This document shows, piece after piece, positions 34,002 through 38,144 of a DNA stretch of 57,756 nt. This DNA comes from Escherichia phage vB_EcoS_PJ16: sequence record OQ955832.1; one strand, given 5' to 3'. The notes below the pieces were generated by a model that was not told the origin of the DNA, searched no databases, and saw nothing but the letters and a program-made list of their open reading frames with translations. Position 1 is the stretch's first letter, and each line of letters begins with the position of its first letter. Made by a program: the position numbers and the translations under genes.

Positions 34002-36037
34002 ATCAATCCATAAATGGCATTGTGTATTACGACACCCCCAACAACAGAGGAAACATTGAAATTAATTTCAGCTTTGTAAGCTCCTGGTGGAACACAATCT
34101 ACCAAAGCATAAAAATTGAACGTGCCTCCTGCTGAGATGTTATATCCCATGGAGTCCGCGACAGCATTTCCTTGTTGGTCAAGGAACCTAAGTGACGCCA
34201 GGGTGGTTGTTGTATTTTTAGCCCAAAAACCAAGCTGAAAATAACGACCTGGCTCACAATCAATGATTGTTTGGGTGAAATTAGCTGCTGCGTCAGATGA
34301 TGGTACAGATAAAACAAAAGAAGTTGAAAACATTAAATCATTAGGAACATCGTTTGTTGTAGTAGCAGTGACAACTCCTGTTCCAGTTTGCGAGAGTGTC
34401 CAGTTAGATATGTTTAAAAACTGTCCTGAGCCATTACTGATGCTATTAATATAAGGGCTTACAATGCTCCCTAAATTCCAGTTACTTGTGATAAATCCTG
34501 CCCGTGGATAGCACCCTCTGGACATTACTTTTTTGCTCGCGCCACCTATCAACTGTCTTGTGGGAAATCCGGTAGCAATCGTTGTATTCCCATAGAGGGG
34601 TAACGAGCAATTATTTAGGCTAACAACCCCATCGCCGTTGCTAACAATAGGTACACTGGTATACCCGTCTGGGAGTAGTATCGTCGAATTACTGACGGTT
34701 AATCGTGAACTGCCATCCACAGTAAACCCAACGAAACTCTGACCAGGTTGGTACTCAATGTTACCGTTTGTGAAAACCACTGTTGCGTTATCTGATAACG
34801 CAACAGTAGGGTCAAAATATCCTGATTTTTTACCTGCCGGTAGAGAGCAGCTATCGAATATAAATTGACCATTAACAAACGTGAAAGGTCCACCGTTGTC
34901 AACCATCCAGCAGTGATTAAATTTTATAACCTCACCGGAATTCGCTGGTGAATTGAAAATAGCAGAATTTGTAAAACTTCTGGACAACGCGCATTTATCA
35001 AAAAGAATACGATATGCATTATCAAGAAACTCAATTCCGGCAGTTGAGATAAACCCACTATTAGATATTCTTAACTCTGATACTACACCACTGGTAGAGC
35101 CACCGATAGCCAATTTCCTGGAACCTTTTCCGACGAATGACACACCACTCATCAAAGCAGTTGCGTTAACTGCATCTCTGTTAATGTAATCCGCGCCTGT
35201 ATTAATAATGGTTAGGTAGTAGTCACCGGTTACAGATGCAGTTTCTGTTAAAGTACATTTATTTTTTCCAATAAGTGCGCCTTTTGCTATGTCGAAAATA
35301 ATCGGTGTTGTTATCTCACCAGAAACAGGAACCACACAGTCAAATCCGGCAGCGTTTATTTTGTTGATGAATACCGCCAAATCTTCGGTTCCAGTATAAC
35401 CAGCATCATACACGTCCACGGTGCCGTTGAAGAATTTTCTTTTCCATACCACACCGTTTCCGGGGAAGGTAACAATATTGTCTACAGTAGTAGTCGCGCT
35501 AACAGCTACCATAATACCACCACCAAAATTAAACCCGCTCACATACGAATCAAGAATTATGGAATCACCAATTGATCCTGATATCGATGATAACTCAGAA
35601 ACTGATGATACAGTCCCTATATAAGACAAACCATTTGATTTGTTTAAATCAGAACGTAACATTAAATCCGTCTGATTAACCCAGTGTGTAGCATCAATAC
35701 CACCCGTAGTTGCAGGTGTTGAACCAGGTGGAACAATTTTAGGCAACATACCCATCCACTGGTAATAATTACCTTCTGATTCATATAGTAGTGTTTCCCA
35801 ACGATGGTTAATAGTACTACCGCCTTCAAACGAACCGTCTGCAGGTTTAAAACCAACTGAACTAAAAAAACCATCCAGTGTTTTGTTAGTAACTGATTCG
35901 CCACGGATTGTATCGGTTGCTTCCAGTGCAGGTTTACCGGTAGCGTCACGACTTTTTGCAACGTGTTCAATATGTAAAATCGCTTGTTTGCCTGTTTTCA
36001 AATCATCAGCACTGATATAATCGTTACAGTTAGCCAT
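33998..36037 (-). CDS. Tailspike / receptor-binding protein with beta-helix-like repeats
   Basis: Track ORF 33998-36064 trimmed to ATG 36037 (GGAG RBS); Gly/Ser/Thr/Asn-rich repetitive beta-strand pattern. Confidence 0.6.
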   Translation of the reverse strand: MANCNDYISADDLKTGKQAILHIEHVAKSRDATGKPALEATDTIRGESVTNKTLDGFFSSVGFKPADGSFEGGSTINHRWETLLYESEGNYYQWMGMLPKIVPPGSTPATTGGIDATHWVNQTDLMLRSDLNKSNGLSYIGTVSSVSELSSISGSIGDSIILDSYVSGFNFGGGIMVAVSATTTVDNIVTFPGNGVVWKRKFFNGTVDVYDAGYTGTEDLAVFINKINAAGFDCVVPVSGEITTPIIFDIAKGALIGKNKCTLTETASVTGDYYLTIINTGADYINRDAVNATALMSGVSFVGKGSRKLAIGGSTSGVVSELRISNSGFISTAGIEFLDNAYRILFDKCALSRSFTNSAIFNSPANSGEVIKFNHCWMVDNGGPFTFVNGQFIFDSCSLPAGKKSGYFDPTVALSDNATVVFTNGNIEYQPGQSFVGFTVDGSSRLTVSNSTILLPDGYTSVPIVSNGDGVVSLNNCSLPLYGNTTIATGFPTRQLIGGASKKVMSRGCYPRAGFITSNWNLGSIVSPYINSISNGSGQFLNISNWTLSQTGTGVVTATTTNDVPNDLMFSTSFVLSVPSSDAAANFTQTIIDCEPGRYFQLGFWAKNTTTTLASLRFLDQQGNAVADSMGYNISAGGTFNFYALVDCVPPGAYKAEINFNVSSVVGGVVIHNAIYGLI
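36013..36021 (+). promoter_or_regulatory. Extended -10 element TGATATAAT (putative late promoter for lysis cassette)
   Basis: Third copy of TGATATAAY motif, 43 nt upstream of 36064 ATG, embedded in tailspike 5' end. Confidence 0.35.
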
Positions 36038-36063
36038 CTTTAAGTCTCCAGGAGTGTAGAACA

Positions 36064-36387
36064 ATGTCTGATAACCCAGTGTTGAGGTATTGGCCTATAA
36101 TAGCATTTGTTGCCACGGGGTTGGTAGGTTACGGGGTAACTCAAAACCAAATCAATTCTAATGAAAAAGATATTGCAGATGCAAAAACCTATGCGCATGA
36201 GGCGCTTAATCTGGCAAAGCGAGTGGAATCCCGAGTGGATGTCCACGACATCAAAATCGAATATCAGGCAACACAGAACGCTGAAATCCTCACCAGTGTT
36301 AAAGAGCTAACACAGTCAACAAATGACCTGAAAGTTGTTATTGAAGGTTTGAAAGCGGAACAACGTAAAACCGGGAGTAAGCAATGA
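36064..36387 (+). CDS. Membrane protein with N-terminal TM helix and coiled coil (lysis-associated, putative)
   Basis: 107 aa; AGGAG RBS; first gene of lysis cassette. Confidence 0.5.
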   Translation: MSDNPVLRYWPIIAFVATGLVGYGVTQNQINSNEKDIADAKTYAHEALNLAKRVESRVDVHDIKIEYQATQNAEILTSVKELTQSTNDLKVVIEGLKAEQRKTGSKQ

Positions 36388-36773
36388 GTAACTTTAAATT
36401 CAGTCAGAGAAGTGAAAATAATCTGAAAGGGGTTAACCCGGATCTTGTGAAAATCGTGCGTCGGGCACTTCAGTTATCACCCGTTGATTTCGGTATCACA
36501 GAAGGTTTACGAACTGTTGAACGACAACGACAACTGGTTGCTGCAGGTAAAAGTCAGACGATGAACAGTCGCCATATTTCAGGCCATGCCGTGGATGTAT
36601 TCGCATATCCTACACCTGCTGGGTCGTGGGAATGGAAATACTATGAACAAATTGCCACTGCATTTAAACAGGCTGCAAAAGAACTGAACATCCCTGTTGA
36701 ATGGGGTGGTGACTGGAAAACCCTGAAAGATGGTCCACACTTCCAGTTACCACATGCAAAATATCCGGCGTGA
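36384..36773 (+). CDS. Endolysin, peptidase M15 family
   Basis: SRHISGHAVDV and DGPHFQL zinc-binding motifs. Confidence 0.8.
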   Translation: MSNFKFSQRSENNLKGVNPDLVKIVRRALQLSPVDFGITEGLRTVERQRQLVAAGKSQTMNSRHISGHAVDVFAYPTPAGSWEWKYYEQIATAFKQAAKELNIPVEWGGDWKTLKDGPHFQLPHAKYPA

Positions 36774-36783
36774 GATAACTGTC

Positions 36784-37014
36784 ATGGACAAGTTCAGCAT
36801 ATTACGTAACACAACCGGGGGGATTTCTTTAAGCCGCGCACAAGCGGCTTTAGGCTTCCTCGTGGTAACAGGCATTCTGATTTACCAGGCCGTGGATCGT
36901 ACACTTGATGATACAGTGCTGTTAACCTATTTCGGTTTCTGTATAGGTCAGTATGTTGGTGCTAAAAAAATCGCTGTAGATAAACAACGAGGTACGCCAA
37001 ATGACAACCCGTAG
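36784..37014 (+). CDS. Holin (putative, two TM helices)
   Basis: Track ORF 36730-37014 trimmed to ATG 36784; two hydrophobic helices. Confidence 0.45.
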   Translation: MDKFSILRNTTGGISLSRAQAALGFLVVTGILIYQAVDRTLDDTVLLTYFGFCIGQYVGAKKIAVDKQRGTPNDNP

Positions 37015-37399
37015 TGTGTTAATCACCGTTGTTGCAACCGTTCTTGTGTTAAGCATAGGTGCGTATACGTGTTACCACGCTGGGTATAAAGCACGGGTAA
37101 ATGAAGAACATCAGGAACGTTTAGACGATGCACAACGGGAACAACAACGGTTAAAGGCACAACAGGAACTGGCAGATGATGTACTTCGTGGTTTAGCTGA
37201 CTGGTCGCAGAATACTAAAATCGTGGAAATACGACATGAAAAGACTAATACTGTTTTTCGTAACGAGTGTCTTACTTCTGAATATCAACGCTTGTACAAC
37301 GAACGAGTTACCGAAGCAGAAGCCCGTTTATCAGGCCGCATTAGTTCAGAAGTGTCAGACCGAAAACCTTCCACGGCTGAACGGTCTGACAGGAAGTGA
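37001..37399 (+). CDS. i-spanin (Rz-like)
   Basis: N-terminal TM helix then charged coiled coil. Confidence 0.55.
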   Translation: MTTRSVLITVVATVLVLSIGAYTCYHAGYKARVNEEHQERLDDAQREQQRLKAQQELADDVLRGLADWSQNTKIVEIRHEKTNTVFRNECLTSEYQRLYNERVTEAEARLSGRISSEVSDRKPSTAERSDRK

Positions 37400-37484
37400 T
37401 TCAACAGATGTTAATGACCAGTGGTTAGATATTTATTTCAAATGTGCAACTATTCACAACGCATTAGTAGACAGTCTTCAGTAA
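37236..37484 (+). CDS. o-spanin (Rz1-like lipoprotein)
   Basis: Out-of-frame overlap with i-spanin; signal peptide with lipobox-like INAC. Confidence 0.5.
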   Translation: MKRLILFFVTSVLLLNINACTTNELPKQKPVYQAALVQKCQTENLPRLNGLTGSDSTDVNDQWLDIYFKCATIHNALVDSLQ

Positions 37485-37697
37485 ATCTTCAACCGATACT
37501 TCAATCCACGATGCGGGAACCGGATATTCAGTCCGGTACATGAACAAGGATGTTCCTATCAACCCGTGTGGATCTGTTTTAATCCCTCGCATGTTCAACA
37601 ATGGAAAAAACTGTTCGCGTGTTTGTGGCAACCGTGCAAAGCGTCCTGTCGGGCGTTTAGCAGGATCCATAGGGTTGAATTCAACGATTGTGGACAT
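37464..37697 (-). CDS. Hypothetical protein (77 aa)
   Basis: Track ORF; last gene of leftward replication operon. Confidence 0.4.
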   Translation of the reverse strand: MSTIVEFNPMDPAKRPTGRFARLPQTREQFFPLLNMRGIKTDPHGLIGTSLFMYRTEYPVPASWIEVSVEDLLKTVY

Positions 37698-37703
37698 AGT
37701 GAG

Positions 37704-38144
37704 TTACTCCAGTGAATAGATTGTAATTTCGCAATCAATGTTGTTCAATTTTTCATAAATCAAAGGTCTGACTACTGACCATGATAAACCACCATTTGAA
37801 CAACCTAATCGTGGTAATGAAACTGAACGTATTTTAAAGTGTCTGATGACTTTTATAAGATCGTCCAAACCATATTCAATCCATTGTAATTGTGAAGGAT
37901 TACACCAATGCTCTTTAGTTGGAAAATTAATAATTATCTGATTGTTTTCAGATGTGACAAACATTTTTCCAACTTTTACATGGTGTTGTTCACACGCTTT
38001 TCGGTACTGTTTAAAATTGTCAGGAAAGGTTCTTTTAAACGCTAAAGCAATACCTTTACCCATTACACCAACGCAATTCACCGTGTTTACTAGAGCATGT
38101 GAATTGCTTTTAAGAAGGTCCCCCGTGACTTCTATTACTGACAT
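37704..38144 (-). CDS. Macrodomain protein, TARG1/DarG-like
   Basis: GDLLxxNSHALVNTVNCVGVMGKGIALAFK and PRLGCSNGGLSW resemble TARG1-type macrodomain signature. Confidence 0.7.
   Translation of the reverse strand: MSVIEVTGDLLKSNSHALVNTVNCVGVMGKGIALAFKRTFPDNFKQYRKACEQHHVKVGKMFVTSENNQIIINFPTKEHWCNPSQLQWIEYGLDDLIKVIRHFKIRSVSLPRLGCSNGGLSWSVVRPLIYEKLNNIDCEITIYSLE

What the first reader, a model, noticed from the sequence alone, without database searches (positions are those of the whole stretch)
36064..37484. Lysis cassette with an extra N-terminal TM/coiled-coil gene ahead of the endolysin and overlapped spanins
The order is TM + coiled-coil protein (107 aa), M15 endolysin, two-TM holin-like protein, i-spanin, and an out-of-frame o-spanin lipoprotein extending beyond the i-spanin. 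The first gene could be an antiholin, a second holin or an unusual spanin-like factor.
Basis: partly seen in the sequence, partly recalled or inferred. Interest (0 to 1): 0.4.

Follow-up and report, generated by a model that had tools for sequence, protein, structure and literature searches.

The report
9NA-type phage lysis cassette, orphan first gene
This is the ordinary, already-annotated five-gene host-lysis operon of a 9NA/Sasha-like E. coli phage. Its first gene encodes a rare membrane-anchored coiled-coil protein whose role in lysis has never been tested.

Summary
There are five tightly packed + strand genes:
- g1 (36064-36387, 107 aa): N-terminal TMD plus one long heptad helix.
- A soluble M15C L-Ala-D-Glu endopeptidase (36384-36773).
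- A 76-aa two-TMD protein of family DUF2644 (36784-37014).
- An i-spanin (37001-37399).
- A +1-frame o-spanin lipoprotein that runs past the i-spanin (37236-37484).

The window is a Sashavirus/Nonanavirus phage. Identical proteins in GenBank are already labelled "holin or antiholin", endolysin and i-/o-spanin.

Comparative genomics adds three points.
- The block endolysin, two-TMD protein, spanins occurs without g1 in Yersinia phage PY100, Mu-like phages and an Aeromonas phage.
- In a divergent 9NA-like phage this block's first two genes are replaced by a P1 Lyz-like SAR lysozyme and a homologue of the P1 pinholin LydD. g1 and the spanins are kept.
- g1 is therefore a lineage-restricted add-on under strong purifying selection. 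An exhaustive search found six proteins.

g1 shows no detectable homology to the Mu releasin, to its own i-spanin, or to any characterised holin.

My reading: the two-TMD protein is the holin and g1 is an auxiliary inner-membrane lysis factor. I favour a holin-like role over an antiholin role, with low confidence. Interest is low to moderate.

The parts
36013..36021 (+). Candidate extended -10 promoter element TGATATAAT for the cassette (inferred, untested)
   Evidence: Read directly. It lies 43 nt upstream of the g1 ATG, inside the first codons of the divergent tailspike gene. It is conserved in 9NA, Solent and Carvaje, but this is coding DNA, so the conservation is not independent evidence. 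The two-hexamer scan did not list it.
36050..36054 (+). Shine-Dalgarno AGGAG, 9 nt before the g1 start codon
   Evidence: Sequence.
36064..36387 (+). g1: 107-aa bitopic membrane protein (TMD residues ~10-25, heptad coiled coil ~30-96, basic C-terminus). Orphan family annotated 'holin or antiholin'.
   Evidence: phrog_24402 4e-56. DUF7365 at 23.9 bits, below the cut-off of 27. AlphaFold2 single helix 10-104. Heptad register and flank charges. dN/dS 0.08. Only 6 proteins at E<=0.001 among 1.84e9 cluster representatives. 100% identical to proteins of AVIO78A, Bas82 and BDX09P1.
36384..36773 (+). Soluble endolysin: M15C L-alanyl-D-glutamate endopeptidase, 129 aa. Zn motif H64-x6-D71 plus H119.
   Evidence: Peptidase_M15_4 5.7e-13 and phrog_465 3.8e-74. 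PDB 23ri 3.5e-55, 8q2g, ChiX 5opz 3.7e-50, T5 endolysin 2mxz 8e-22. No hydrophobic segment. The start overlaps the g1 stop (ATGA).
36784..37014 (+). Two-TMD 76-aa protein of family DUF2644 (TMD1 ~19-36, TMD2 ~43-60, charged C-tail). Inferred class II holin.
   Evidence: phrog_1322 5e-18. Close relatives carry a precomputed PF10841 assignment. The PY100 and SuMu homologues score above the DUF2644 cut-off. Hydropathy. The start is as annotated in relatives.
37001..37399 (+). i-spanin, 132 aa: N-terminal TMD (Kyte-Doolittle 2.45) followed by a charged helical periplasmic domain
   Evidence: phrog_1152 Rz-like spanin 3.5e-25. Hydropathy. Annotated as i-spanin in relatives.
37236..37484 (+). o-spanin, 82 aa: lipoprotein signal MKRLILFFVTSVLLLNINA|C20, Thr at +2, overlapped (+1 frame) architecture
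   Evidence: Sequence. phrog_2425 2.5e-26, phrog_456 Rz-like spanin 3e-4, Pfam LysC 0.003 below cut-off. Annotated as o-spanin in Bas82, AVIO78A and Solent.

Best explanation
This is the late lysis operon of a 9NA/Sasha-like siphophage. It has a self-sufficient core and one lineage-specific addition.

The core has three parts:
- a soluble M15C endopeptidase that cuts peptidoglycan;
- a DUF2644 two-TMD protein that I take to be the class II, large-hole holin letting the enzyme across the inner membrane;
- an overlapped i-/o-spanin pair that fuses or disrupts the outer membrane.

The addition is g1, placed in front of the core and translationally coupled to the endolysin. g1 is a small inner-membrane protein with a short, glycine-rich TMD. 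Charge bias suggests N-in/C-out topology, which would put a ~70-residue coiled coil in the periplasm.

I think g1 most likely acts as an auxiliary, holin-like timing component. Coiled-coil-driven oligomers would bundle the weakly hydrophobic TMDs and help collapse the membrane potential. That collapse is the one signal to which any holin, pinholin or SAR endolysin responds.

Shown: the gene identities, the architecture, the distribution and the purifying selection. Inferred: that the two-TMD protein is the holin. Speculative: the mechanism of g1.
For: 1. Cassette identity: and the annotations of 96%-identical phages.

2. The core block works without g1.
- PY100 has a homologous M15 endolysin, a DUF2644 protein and overlapped spanins. 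It has no g1 homologue anywhere in its genome.
- The Mu-like phages SuMu, ST405-OXA48phi1.1 and VW-6B have a soluble endolysin, DUF2644 and spanin directly after Mor or GemA.
- Every endolysin found next to DUF2644 lacks a TMD, so each needs a true holin.

3. The third gene position behaves like the holin slot. In the divergent 9NA-like contig L011 the endolysin is a P1 Lyz-like SAR lysozyme. The third gene there is a DUF7940 protein 42% identical to P1 LydD. LydD was shown experimentally to be a pinholin (PMC9025707). Aeromonas phage AeroV_348 has lysozyme, a LydD-like protein and a spanin, with no upstream membrane gene.

4. g1 is kept whatever its partners. It occurs with the M15 enzyme (window), with a soluble GH24 lysozyme (Carvaje) and with SAR lysozyme plus a LydD-like protein (L011). 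In L011 it has diverged to 42% identity, in step with the spanins at 48% and 57%. This fits an action that needs no specific partner.

5. g1 has a strong Shine-Dalgarno sequence, an ATGA overlap with the endolysin start, and dN/dS of 0.08.

6. There is precedent for several cooperating holins in one phage: P1 LydA, LydC and LydD (PMC9025707).
Against: - There is no experiment on any member of the g1 or DUF2644 families. The 'holin' labels in PHROGs and GenBank are predictions.
- g1 sits in the position usually taken by the holin gene (first, ahead of the endolysin), as in lambda S-R or P2 Y-K (my own knowledge). It could therefore be the main holin.
- The g1 TMD is short and only weakly hydrophobic (Kyte-Doolittle 1.5).
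- The topology call rests on a small charge bias: one K/R on either side, with net 0 on the N side against -1 to -2 in the C-flank in most members.
- PY100 and the Mu-like phages carry other one-TMD coiled-coil proteins near their cassettes. 'DUF2644 alone suffices' is therefore not proven.
- The near-invariant C-terminal half of g1 suggests a specific binding partner. That fits a regulator better than a generic pore former.
Confidence: 0.4

Rival explanations
1. g1 is the main holin of the lineage. It would be class III-like: one TMD with an external C-terminal domain. The two-TMD DUF2644 protein would be a timing regulator like P2 LysA, giving a P2-style order of holin, endolysin, regulator, LysB-type i-spanin, LysC-type o-spanin.
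For: - g1 is first in the operon, coupled to the endolysin start, and has a strong Shine-Dalgarno sequence.
- It is universal in 9NA-like phages whatever the endolysin.
- The gene order and the overlapped spanins mirror P2 Y-K-lysA-lysB-lysC (own knowledge).
- There are weak LysB and LysC hits.
- It is labelled 'holin' in phrog_24402 and RefSeq.
Against: - The endolysin, DUF2644, spanin block is complete without g1 in PY100 and Mu-like phages.
- The third gene in L011 is a homologue of a proven pinholin (PMC9025707).
- g1 has no homology to T4 T or to any characterised holin.
- The g1 TMD is weakly hydrophobic.
Confidence: 0.2
2. g1 is an antiholin. It would bind the two-TMD holin, TMD to TMD, and delay triggering. 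It might be released like a SAR domain because its TMD is glycine-rich.
For: - Center for Phage Technology annotators label it 'holin or antiholin'.
- The TMD is weakly hydrophobic, with invariant G19, G22 and G24 and small-xxx-small motifs.
- Size and layout resemble T4 RI, which has an N-terminal SAR anchor and a helical periplasmic domain (own knowledge).
Against: - g1 is retained when the holin family is swapped from DUF2644 to LydD-like. A specific inhibitor should not survive that.
- The two-TMD protein has only a ~6-residue loop between its two TMDs, so the conserved g1 coiled coil has nothing on it to bind.
- There is no dual-start arrangement, and no RI-type family was among its hits.
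Confidence: 0.2
3. g1 works with the spanins or in the periplasm, for example by holding the i-/o-spanin complex inactive until peptidoglycan is cut. It would not act on the inner membrane.
For: - Its architecture is that of an i-spanin.
- Weak but recurrent hits: phrog_739 Rz-like spanin in 8 of 10 family members (best 7.6e-5), and TIGR03495 LysB at 0.0019.
- g1 is co-inherited with the spanins when the middle of the cassette is replaced.
- Charge bias suggests a periplasmic coiled coil.
Against: - All hits are far below the family cut-offs. They are the kind expected for any TMD plus coiled-coil sequence.
- Profile comparison with the phage's own i-spanin gave 0.2% probability.
- g1 has no partner lipoprotein gene and no cysteines.
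- No spanin regulator of this kind is known.
Confidence: 0.1
4. g1 is not a lysis gene. It would be a small membrane protein, such as a superinfection-exclusion or envelope-modifying factor, that merely shares the operon.
For: - The family is tiny and has no functional annotation from experiment.
- g1 has a different evolutionary history from its neighbours: dS against 9NA is 1.8, versus 0.4-1.0 for the other genes.
Against: - The ATGA overlap with the endolysin start is kept in the relatives examined (9NA, Solent, Bas82, AVIO78A, Carvaje and L011), and g1 is the first gene of the lysis operon in each.
- The more distant homologues sit next to small two-TMD proteins.
Confidence: 0.1

Closest known systems
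Lysis cassettes of Salmonella phages 9NA, Sasha and Solent, Escherichia phages AVIO78A and KarinMuster_Bas82, and Klebsiella phage Carvaje (GenBank annotations)
   Same: Same five genes in the same order. g1 and the two-TMD protein are 100% identical to those of AVIO78A and Bas82. The region is 96% identical at nucleotide level.
   Different: Nothing substantive. Carvaje-type phages carry a soluble GH24 lysozyme instead of the M15 enzyme.
Phage P2 lysis cassette Y-K-lysA-lysB-lysC (own knowledge)
   Same: The order membrane protein, soluble endolysin, small membrane protein, then overlapped i-/o-spanins. The overlapped spanin architecture is the LysB/LysC type.
   Different: No family-level homology to the P2 spanin families: the o-spanin scores 17.9 bits on Pfam LysC (cut-off 27), and the only LysB hit is g1's 18.5 bits (cut-off 92.75). 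I did not compare the window proteins with P2 Y, K or LysA. From memory, P2 Y and LysA have several TMDs, whereas g1 has one TMD and the third protein here has two.
Endolysin-DUF2644-spanin modules of Yersinia phage PY100 and Mu-like phages (SuMu, ST405-OXA48phi1.1, VW-6B)
   Same: Homologous two-TMD protein directly after a soluble endolysin and before the spanins. The PY100 endolysin is also a homologous M15 enzyme.
   Different: They lack g1. [quoted passage not shown] Basic residues follow its TMD.
Mu gp25 releasin, family DUF2730 (PMC9239132)
   Same: [quoted passage not shown]
   Different: Not homologous (hhalign probability 4%). gp25 is N-out/C-in, with an Arg-Arg motif right after the TMD, and lies downstream of the endolysin. 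g1 has no basic residue in the 8 positions after its TMD in 9 of 10 family members, and it lies upstream.
T4 holin T and antiholin RI; multi-holin systems such as P1 LydA/LydC/LydD (PMC9025707)
   Same: One-TMD lysis proteins with an external domain. More than one hole-former can cooperate in a single phage.
   Different: No T, RI, LydA or LydC family appears among the family hits of g1. g1 is a plain coiled coil without cysteines. Only the third gene of the divergent relative L011 is related to LydD.

Membership tests
Two-component spanin, overlapped architecture (Rz/Rz1; P2 LysB/LysC type) | i-spanin: N-terminal TMD followed by a charged helical periplasmic domain | tested here: met
   Kyte-Doolittle 2.45 at residues 5-21; 21 K/R and 21 D/E in the protein as a whole. 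phrog_1152 Rz-like spanin 3.5e-25.
Two-component spanin, overlapped architecture (Rz/Rz1; P2 LysB/LysC type) | o-spanin: lipoprotein signal with a lipobox Cys and a non-Asp residue at +2 | tested here: met
   MKRLILFFVTSVLLLNINA|C20-T21. Asn at -2 is unusual; 9NA and Carvaje have the canonical I-S-A-C.
Two-component spanin, overlapped architecture (Rz/Rz1; P2 LysB/LysC type) | o-spanin gene starts inside the i-spanin gene in the +1 frame and ends beyond it | tested here: met
   37236-37484 against 37001-37399. The offset of 235 nt equals 3n+1.
Two-component spanin, overlapped architecture (Rz/Rz1; P2 LysB/LysC type) | Outer-membrane disruption and complementation of lambda RzRz1 | not testable with these tools
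   Needs experiment.
M15C L-Ala-D-Glu endopeptidase endolysin (T5 Lys / ChiX type) | Family HMM above the curated cut-off and close similarity to solved members | tested here: met
   Peptidase_M15_4 49.7 bits against a cut-off of 25. 23ri 3.5e-55, 8q2g, 5opz, 2mxz.
M15C L-Ala-D-Glu endopeptidase endolysin (T5 Lys / ChiX type) | Zn-binding H-x6-D plus a C-terminal His; no signal or SAR sequence (cytoplasmic, holin-dependent) | tested here: met
   H64-x6-D71 and H119 read from the translation. No hydrophobic window.
Class II holin (applied to the two-TMD protein) | Small size, two TMDs, charged C-terminal tail, gene adjacent to the endolysin | tested here: met
   76 aa. Hydrophobic segments ~19-36 and ~43-60. 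Tail KKIAVDKQRGTPNDNP.
Class II holin (applied to the two-TMD protein) | Membership of a family with an experimentally proven holin | tested here: not met
   DUF2644 and phrog_1322 have no assigned function. No paper mentions DUF2644.
Class II holin (applied to the two-TMD protein) | Lethal hole formation that can be triggered by energy poisons | not testable with these tools
   Needs experiment.
Class III holin, T4 T-like (applied to g1) | Single TMD with N-in/C-out topology and a large periplasmic domain | tested here: inconclusive
   One TMD. The charge bias points weakly to N-in/C-out. No dedicated topology predictor was available.
Class III holin, T4 T-like (applied to g1) | Homology to the T family | tested here: not met
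   No such hit in Pfam, PHROGs or NCBIfam.
Releasin, DUF2730 (Mu gp25) | DUF2730 profile match | tested here: not met
   1 of 10 family members at E=0.014, below cut-off. hhalign against gp25 gave 4% probability.
Releasin, DUF2730 (Mu gp25) | [quoted passage not shown] | tested here: not met
   The TMD is followed by QNQ(I/V)N, and the first basic residue comes at +9 or later in 9 of 10 family members. g1 lies upstream of the endolysin.
Pfam DUF7365 (coiled-coil region of unknown function) | Score above the gathering cut-off | tested here: inconclusive
   23.9 bits against 27 for the window protein. 8 of 10 family members match below cut-off. One variant 96% identical to g1 carries a precomputed PF24073.2 assignment.
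Antiholin (lambda S107 or T4 RI type, applied to g1) | Dual-start product of the holin gene, or a periplasmic domain that binds a periplasmic domain of the holin | tested here: not met
   g1 is a separate gene with a single Met start. The putative holin has only the short loop DRTLDD between its TMDs.

The most novel reading that the evidence does not exclude
g1 founds a new class of lysis accessory protein: a membrane-anchored periplasmic coiled coil that sets lysis timing, or gates the spanins, independently of which holin and endolysin the phage carries. It would be a functional counterpart, in the opposite topology, of the bitopic coiled-coil proteins that recur in Mu-like lysis regions.
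Probability: 0.15. Interest if true: 0.6.

Novelty: already known. Interest (0 to 1): 0.27.

Why it matters
As a cassette it does not matter much. It is the standard holin, endolysin and spanin solution, already annotated in near-identical phages.

The residual value lies in three points.
- Two of its five proteins, g1 and the DUF2644 protein, have never been tested.
- DUF2644 looks like a widespread but unrecognised holin family, shared by 9NA-like, PY100-like and Mu-like phages.
- Small one-TMD coiled-coil proteins keep turning up in lysis regions, with only one (Mu gp25) characterised so far.

Bas82, from the BASEL collection, is an E. coli phage that carries an identical g1. The question should therefore be straightforward to test.

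Tried and rejected
- Homology of g1 to the Mu releasin gp25 (DUF2730): rejected. hhalign gave 4%.
- g1 as a paralogue of the phage's own i-spanin: rejected. hhalign gave 0.2%.
- Homology of g1 to the ~80-aa N-TMD coiled-coil family of Mu-like phages (ending KLDxKADK). I collected that family from 80 IMG/VR loci. Rejected at 1.9%. That family also matches neither Mu gp25 (13%) nor any Pfam family.
- Wider homologues of g1. An exhaustive profile search of 1.84e9 representatives gave 6 hits. An alignment-seeded search of 5.8e9 proteins gave 17. A viral-contig scan gave only close relatives. The contigs of the distant members are under 1.3 kb and say little.
- PDB search with the g1 profile: only designed or tropomyosin coiled coils.
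- Fold search was not run. The model is one straight helix with pTM 0.33, so any matches would be meaningless.
- ChiW, the Serratia holin that partners the closely related endopeptidase ChiX. It is a lambda S-like protein with three TMDs (PMC4259817), an architecture unlike g1 or the two-TMD protein.
- The sigma-70 and terminator consensus scan found no more sites than in shuffled sequence.
- Literature searches for 9NA, Sashavirus or Nonanavirus lysis and for DUF7365 or DUF2644 found no experimental work.
Full report
**What is there**

- g1, 36064-36387, 107 aa. It is preceded by AGGAG 9 nt upstream. Its stop overlaps the next start codon (ATGA).
- Endolysin, 36384-36773, 129 aa. It matches Peptidase_M15_4 at 5.7e-13 and phrog_465 at 3.8e-74. 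It is 3.5e-55 from a solved M15C peptidase, 3.7e-50 from Serratia ChiX and 8e-22 from the T5 L-Ala-D-Glu endolysin.
  - The translation shows H64-x6-D71 and H119.
  - It has no hydrophobic segment. It is therefore a cytoplasmic enzyme that needs a real holin.
- Two-TMD protein, 36784-37014, 76 aa. The ORF lister begins it at 36730, but relatives annotate the ATG at 36784.
  - It has two hydrophobic segments and a charged tail.
  - It matches phrog_1322 at 5e-18. Its close relatives carry a precomputed DUF2644 assignment.
- i-spanin, 37001-37399. phrog_1152 at 3.5e-25.
- o-spanin, 37236-37484. It is in the +1 frame, starts inside the i-spanin gene and ends 85 nt past it. Its lipoprotein signal ends in I-N-A-C20.

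These are real genes. dN/dS against 9NA is 0.08 for g1, 0.03 for the endolysin and 0.025 for the two-TMD gene.

**Where it comes from**

The region is 96% identical to Sashavirus genomes and to Escherichia phages KarinMuster_Bas82 and AVIO78A. It is 84-86% identical to Salmonella phages Sasha, Solent and 9NA.

Those records annotate the same five genes:
- g1 as 'holin' or 'holin or antiholin';
- then endolysin;
- then 'membrane protein', 'holin or antiholin' or 'rIIA lysis inhibitor';
- then i-spanin and o-spanin.

g1 and the two-TMD protein are 100% identical to those of AVIO78A and Bas82. The cassette as such is therefore already known at the level of annotation. I found no experimental work on it.

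**The first gene, g1**

- The TMD is short and weakly hydrophobic (residues ~10-25, Kyte-Doolittle maximum 1.52, against 2.45 for the i-spanin). G19, G22 and G24 are invariant.
- AlphaFold2 gives one helix from 10 to 104, with pLDDT 71 and above 88 for residues 71-100.
- One heptad register places I/A/V/L, with a few polar residues (N33, H61, Q68, N72, T86), at the a and d positions from residue 30 to 96 without a break.
- The charge pattern is shared by most of the family.
  - There is one K/R two residues before the TMD.
  - The first eight positions after it hold no basic residue in 9 of 10 members.
  - The C-flank is net negative in 9 of 10.
  This weakly favours N-in/C-out, which would put the coiled coil in the periplasm.
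- The C-terminal half (residues 51-97) is almost invariant among the E. coli, Salmonella and Klebsiella phages. The N-terminal half varies.
- The family is very small.
  - An exhaustive profile search of 1.84 billion cluster representatives found six proteins.
  - Wider seeded searches added only a few more from short metagenome contigs.
- The only hits outside its own PHROG are sub-threshold, the kind any TMD plus coiled-coil sequence collects.
  - DUF7365: 23.9 bits against a cut-off of 27.
  - phrog_739 Rz-like spanin.
  - phrog_1296 holin.
  - TIGR03495 LysB: 18.5 bits against 92.75.
- Profile-profile tests exclude detectable homology to Mu gp25 (4%) and to the phage's own i-spanin (0.2%).

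**Comparative anatomy of the cassette**

Three observations bear on which protein is the holin.

First, the block endolysin, DUF2644, overlapped spanins exists without g1.
- Yersinia phage PY100 has a homologous M15 endolysin, a DUF2644 protein (26 bits, above the cut-off) and a spanin pair. This block is the start of a + strand unit. An HMM of the g1 family finds nothing in the PY100 genome.
- The Mu-like phages SuMu, ST405-OXA48phi1.1 and VW-6B have a soluble amidase or lysozyme-type (GH19-annotated) endolysin, then DUF2644, then spanin, directly after Mor or GemA.
- Every endolysin I found next to DUF2644 lacks a TMD. Each therefore needs a large-hole holin, and DUF2644 is the only membrane protein between the endolysin and the spanins.

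Second, the third gene position changes together with the endolysin type.
- In the divergent 9NA-like contig L011 the endolysin is a 181-aa lysozyme. Its N-terminus (MSTKRVTAATGAVCAVSVIIGVVLNNGNVRTNQRGLE) is a P1 Lyz-type SAR domain (the resemblance is from my recollection of the P1 Lyz sequence).
- The next gene there is a 70-aa DUF7940 protein, 42% identical to P1 LydD.
- LydD has been shown experimentally to be a pinholin that works with the SAR endolysin Lyz (PMC9025707).
- Aeromonas phage AeroV_348 has lysozyme, a LydD-like protein and a spanin, with no upstream membrane gene.

Third, g1 is kept through all of this.
- It occurs with the M15 enzyme (window and 9NA), with a soluble GH24 lysozyme (Carvaje), and with the SAR lysozyme and LydD-like pair (L011).
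- In L011 it has diverged to 42% identity, alongside the i-spanin at 48% and the o-spanin at 57%.

**Interpretation**

The simplest reading is that the two-TMD protein is the holin and that g1 is a lineage-specific addition to an already complete cassette.

Because g1 survives replacement of both the holin family and the endolysin, a role needing specific recognition of the holin (a classical antiholin) is less likely. The putative holin also has almost no periplasmic surface for the conserved coiled coil to bind.

A partner-independent action fits better. I favour a holin-like or depolarising contribution to timing, since loss of membrane potential triggers holins, pinholins and SAR endolysins alike. 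P1 shows that several hole-formers can cooperate in one phage (PMC9025707).

This step is inference, and I give it 0.4. The rivals are:
- g1 as the main holin, with the two-TMD protein as a LysA-like regulator, as in P2 (0.2);
- g1 as an antiholin (0.2);
- a spanin-associated or periplasmic role, suggested by its i-spanin-like architecture and its co-inheritance with the spanins (0.1);
- no role in lysis (0.1).

Only genetics will decide. Bas82 infects E. coli and carries an identical g1.

**Comparison with known systems**

- The gene order matches P2 Y-K-lysA-lysB-lysC, and the spanins have the LysB/LysC overlapped architecture (own knowledge). No hit to the P2 spanin families LysB or LysC reaches the family threshold, and I did not compare the window proteins with P2 Y, K or LysA.
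- The Mu releasin gp25 looks similar on paper. It differs in sequence, in predicted topology (N-out/C-in, with an Arg-Arg motif after the TMD) and in gene position (PMC9239132).
- The endolysin's close relative ChiX works with ChiW, a lambda S-like holin with three TMDs (PMC4259817). ChiW has an architecture unlike either membrane protein here.

**Verdict**

This is an already-annotated cassette of a known kind. The open point is the untested function of an orphan first gene. Interest is low to moderate.

Noticed in passing
window 36013-36021 (+), with the tailspike start at 36037 (-): Only 26 bp separate the start codons of the divergent tailspike and g1 genes. A perfect extended -10 element, TGATATAAT, sits 43 nt upstream of g1 inside the first tailspike codons. 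It is conserved in 9NA, Solent and Carvaje, but this is coding DNA. The two-hexamer promoter scan missed it.
   Followed up: partly
window 37704-38144 (-): A 146-aa macro-domain protein (Pfam Macro 9e-20) lies just downstream of the cassette, before the Dam methylase gene. Among 9NA-like phages only Sashavirus BDX09P1 has it (99% identity). Bas82 and AVIO78A annotate no gene between the 77-aa ORF and the next gene (a methyltransferase in Bas82), and the next-best phage matches are about 50% identical or less. It may be an accessory (moron) gene that reverses ADP-ribosylation.
   Followed up: partly
window 37464-37484: The 3' end of the o-spanin gene overlaps the 3' end of the convergent 77-aa ORF (37464-37697, - strand) by 21 nt. 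The same arrangement is annotated in Bas82 and AVIO78A.
   Followed up: no
window 36064-36387 compared with L004 (9NA): Synonymous divergence of g1 from 9NA (dS 1.8) is well above that of the endolysin (0.69), the two-TMD gene (1.05) and the spanins (~0.4). This suggests g1 alleles have been exchanged separately, perhaps together with the adjacent tailspike head-binding end.
   Followed up: no
L023 3371-3927, L024 3244-3755, L025 3335-3813, and L026-L105: Mu-like phages carry two small proteins after their spanins. The first is ~80 aa, with an N-terminal TMD, a coiled coil and a conserved ending KLDxKADK. The second has a coiled coil and a C-terminal TMD. The first family matches no Pfam family and is not detectably related to Mu gp25 or to g1. 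In 41 of 80 loci a DUF2644-like ORF lies 0.6-1.1 kb upstream.
   Followed up: partly
L011 5387-6132: A divergent 9NA-like metagenomic phage has swapped the M15 endolysin and DUF2644 pair for a P1-type lyz-lydD pair (SAR lysozyme plus pinholin homologue). It keeps g1 and the spanins. This is a clean example of module exchange inside a lysis operon.
   Followed up: yes
L014 15123-15446 (-), PY100 ORF43: A 107-aa protein with an N-terminal coiled coil and a C-terminal TMD (XhlA-like layout, no significant Pfam hit) lies about 2 kb from the PY100 lysis genes on the opposite strand.
   Followed up: no
L006 2001-2243 (Carvaje two-TMD gene): The Carvaje homologue of the two-TMD protein begins M-D-M-F-S-M. 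Its three closely spaced Met codons could form a dual-start holin/antiholin motif. The window protein begins M-D-K-F and has a single start.
   Followed up: no
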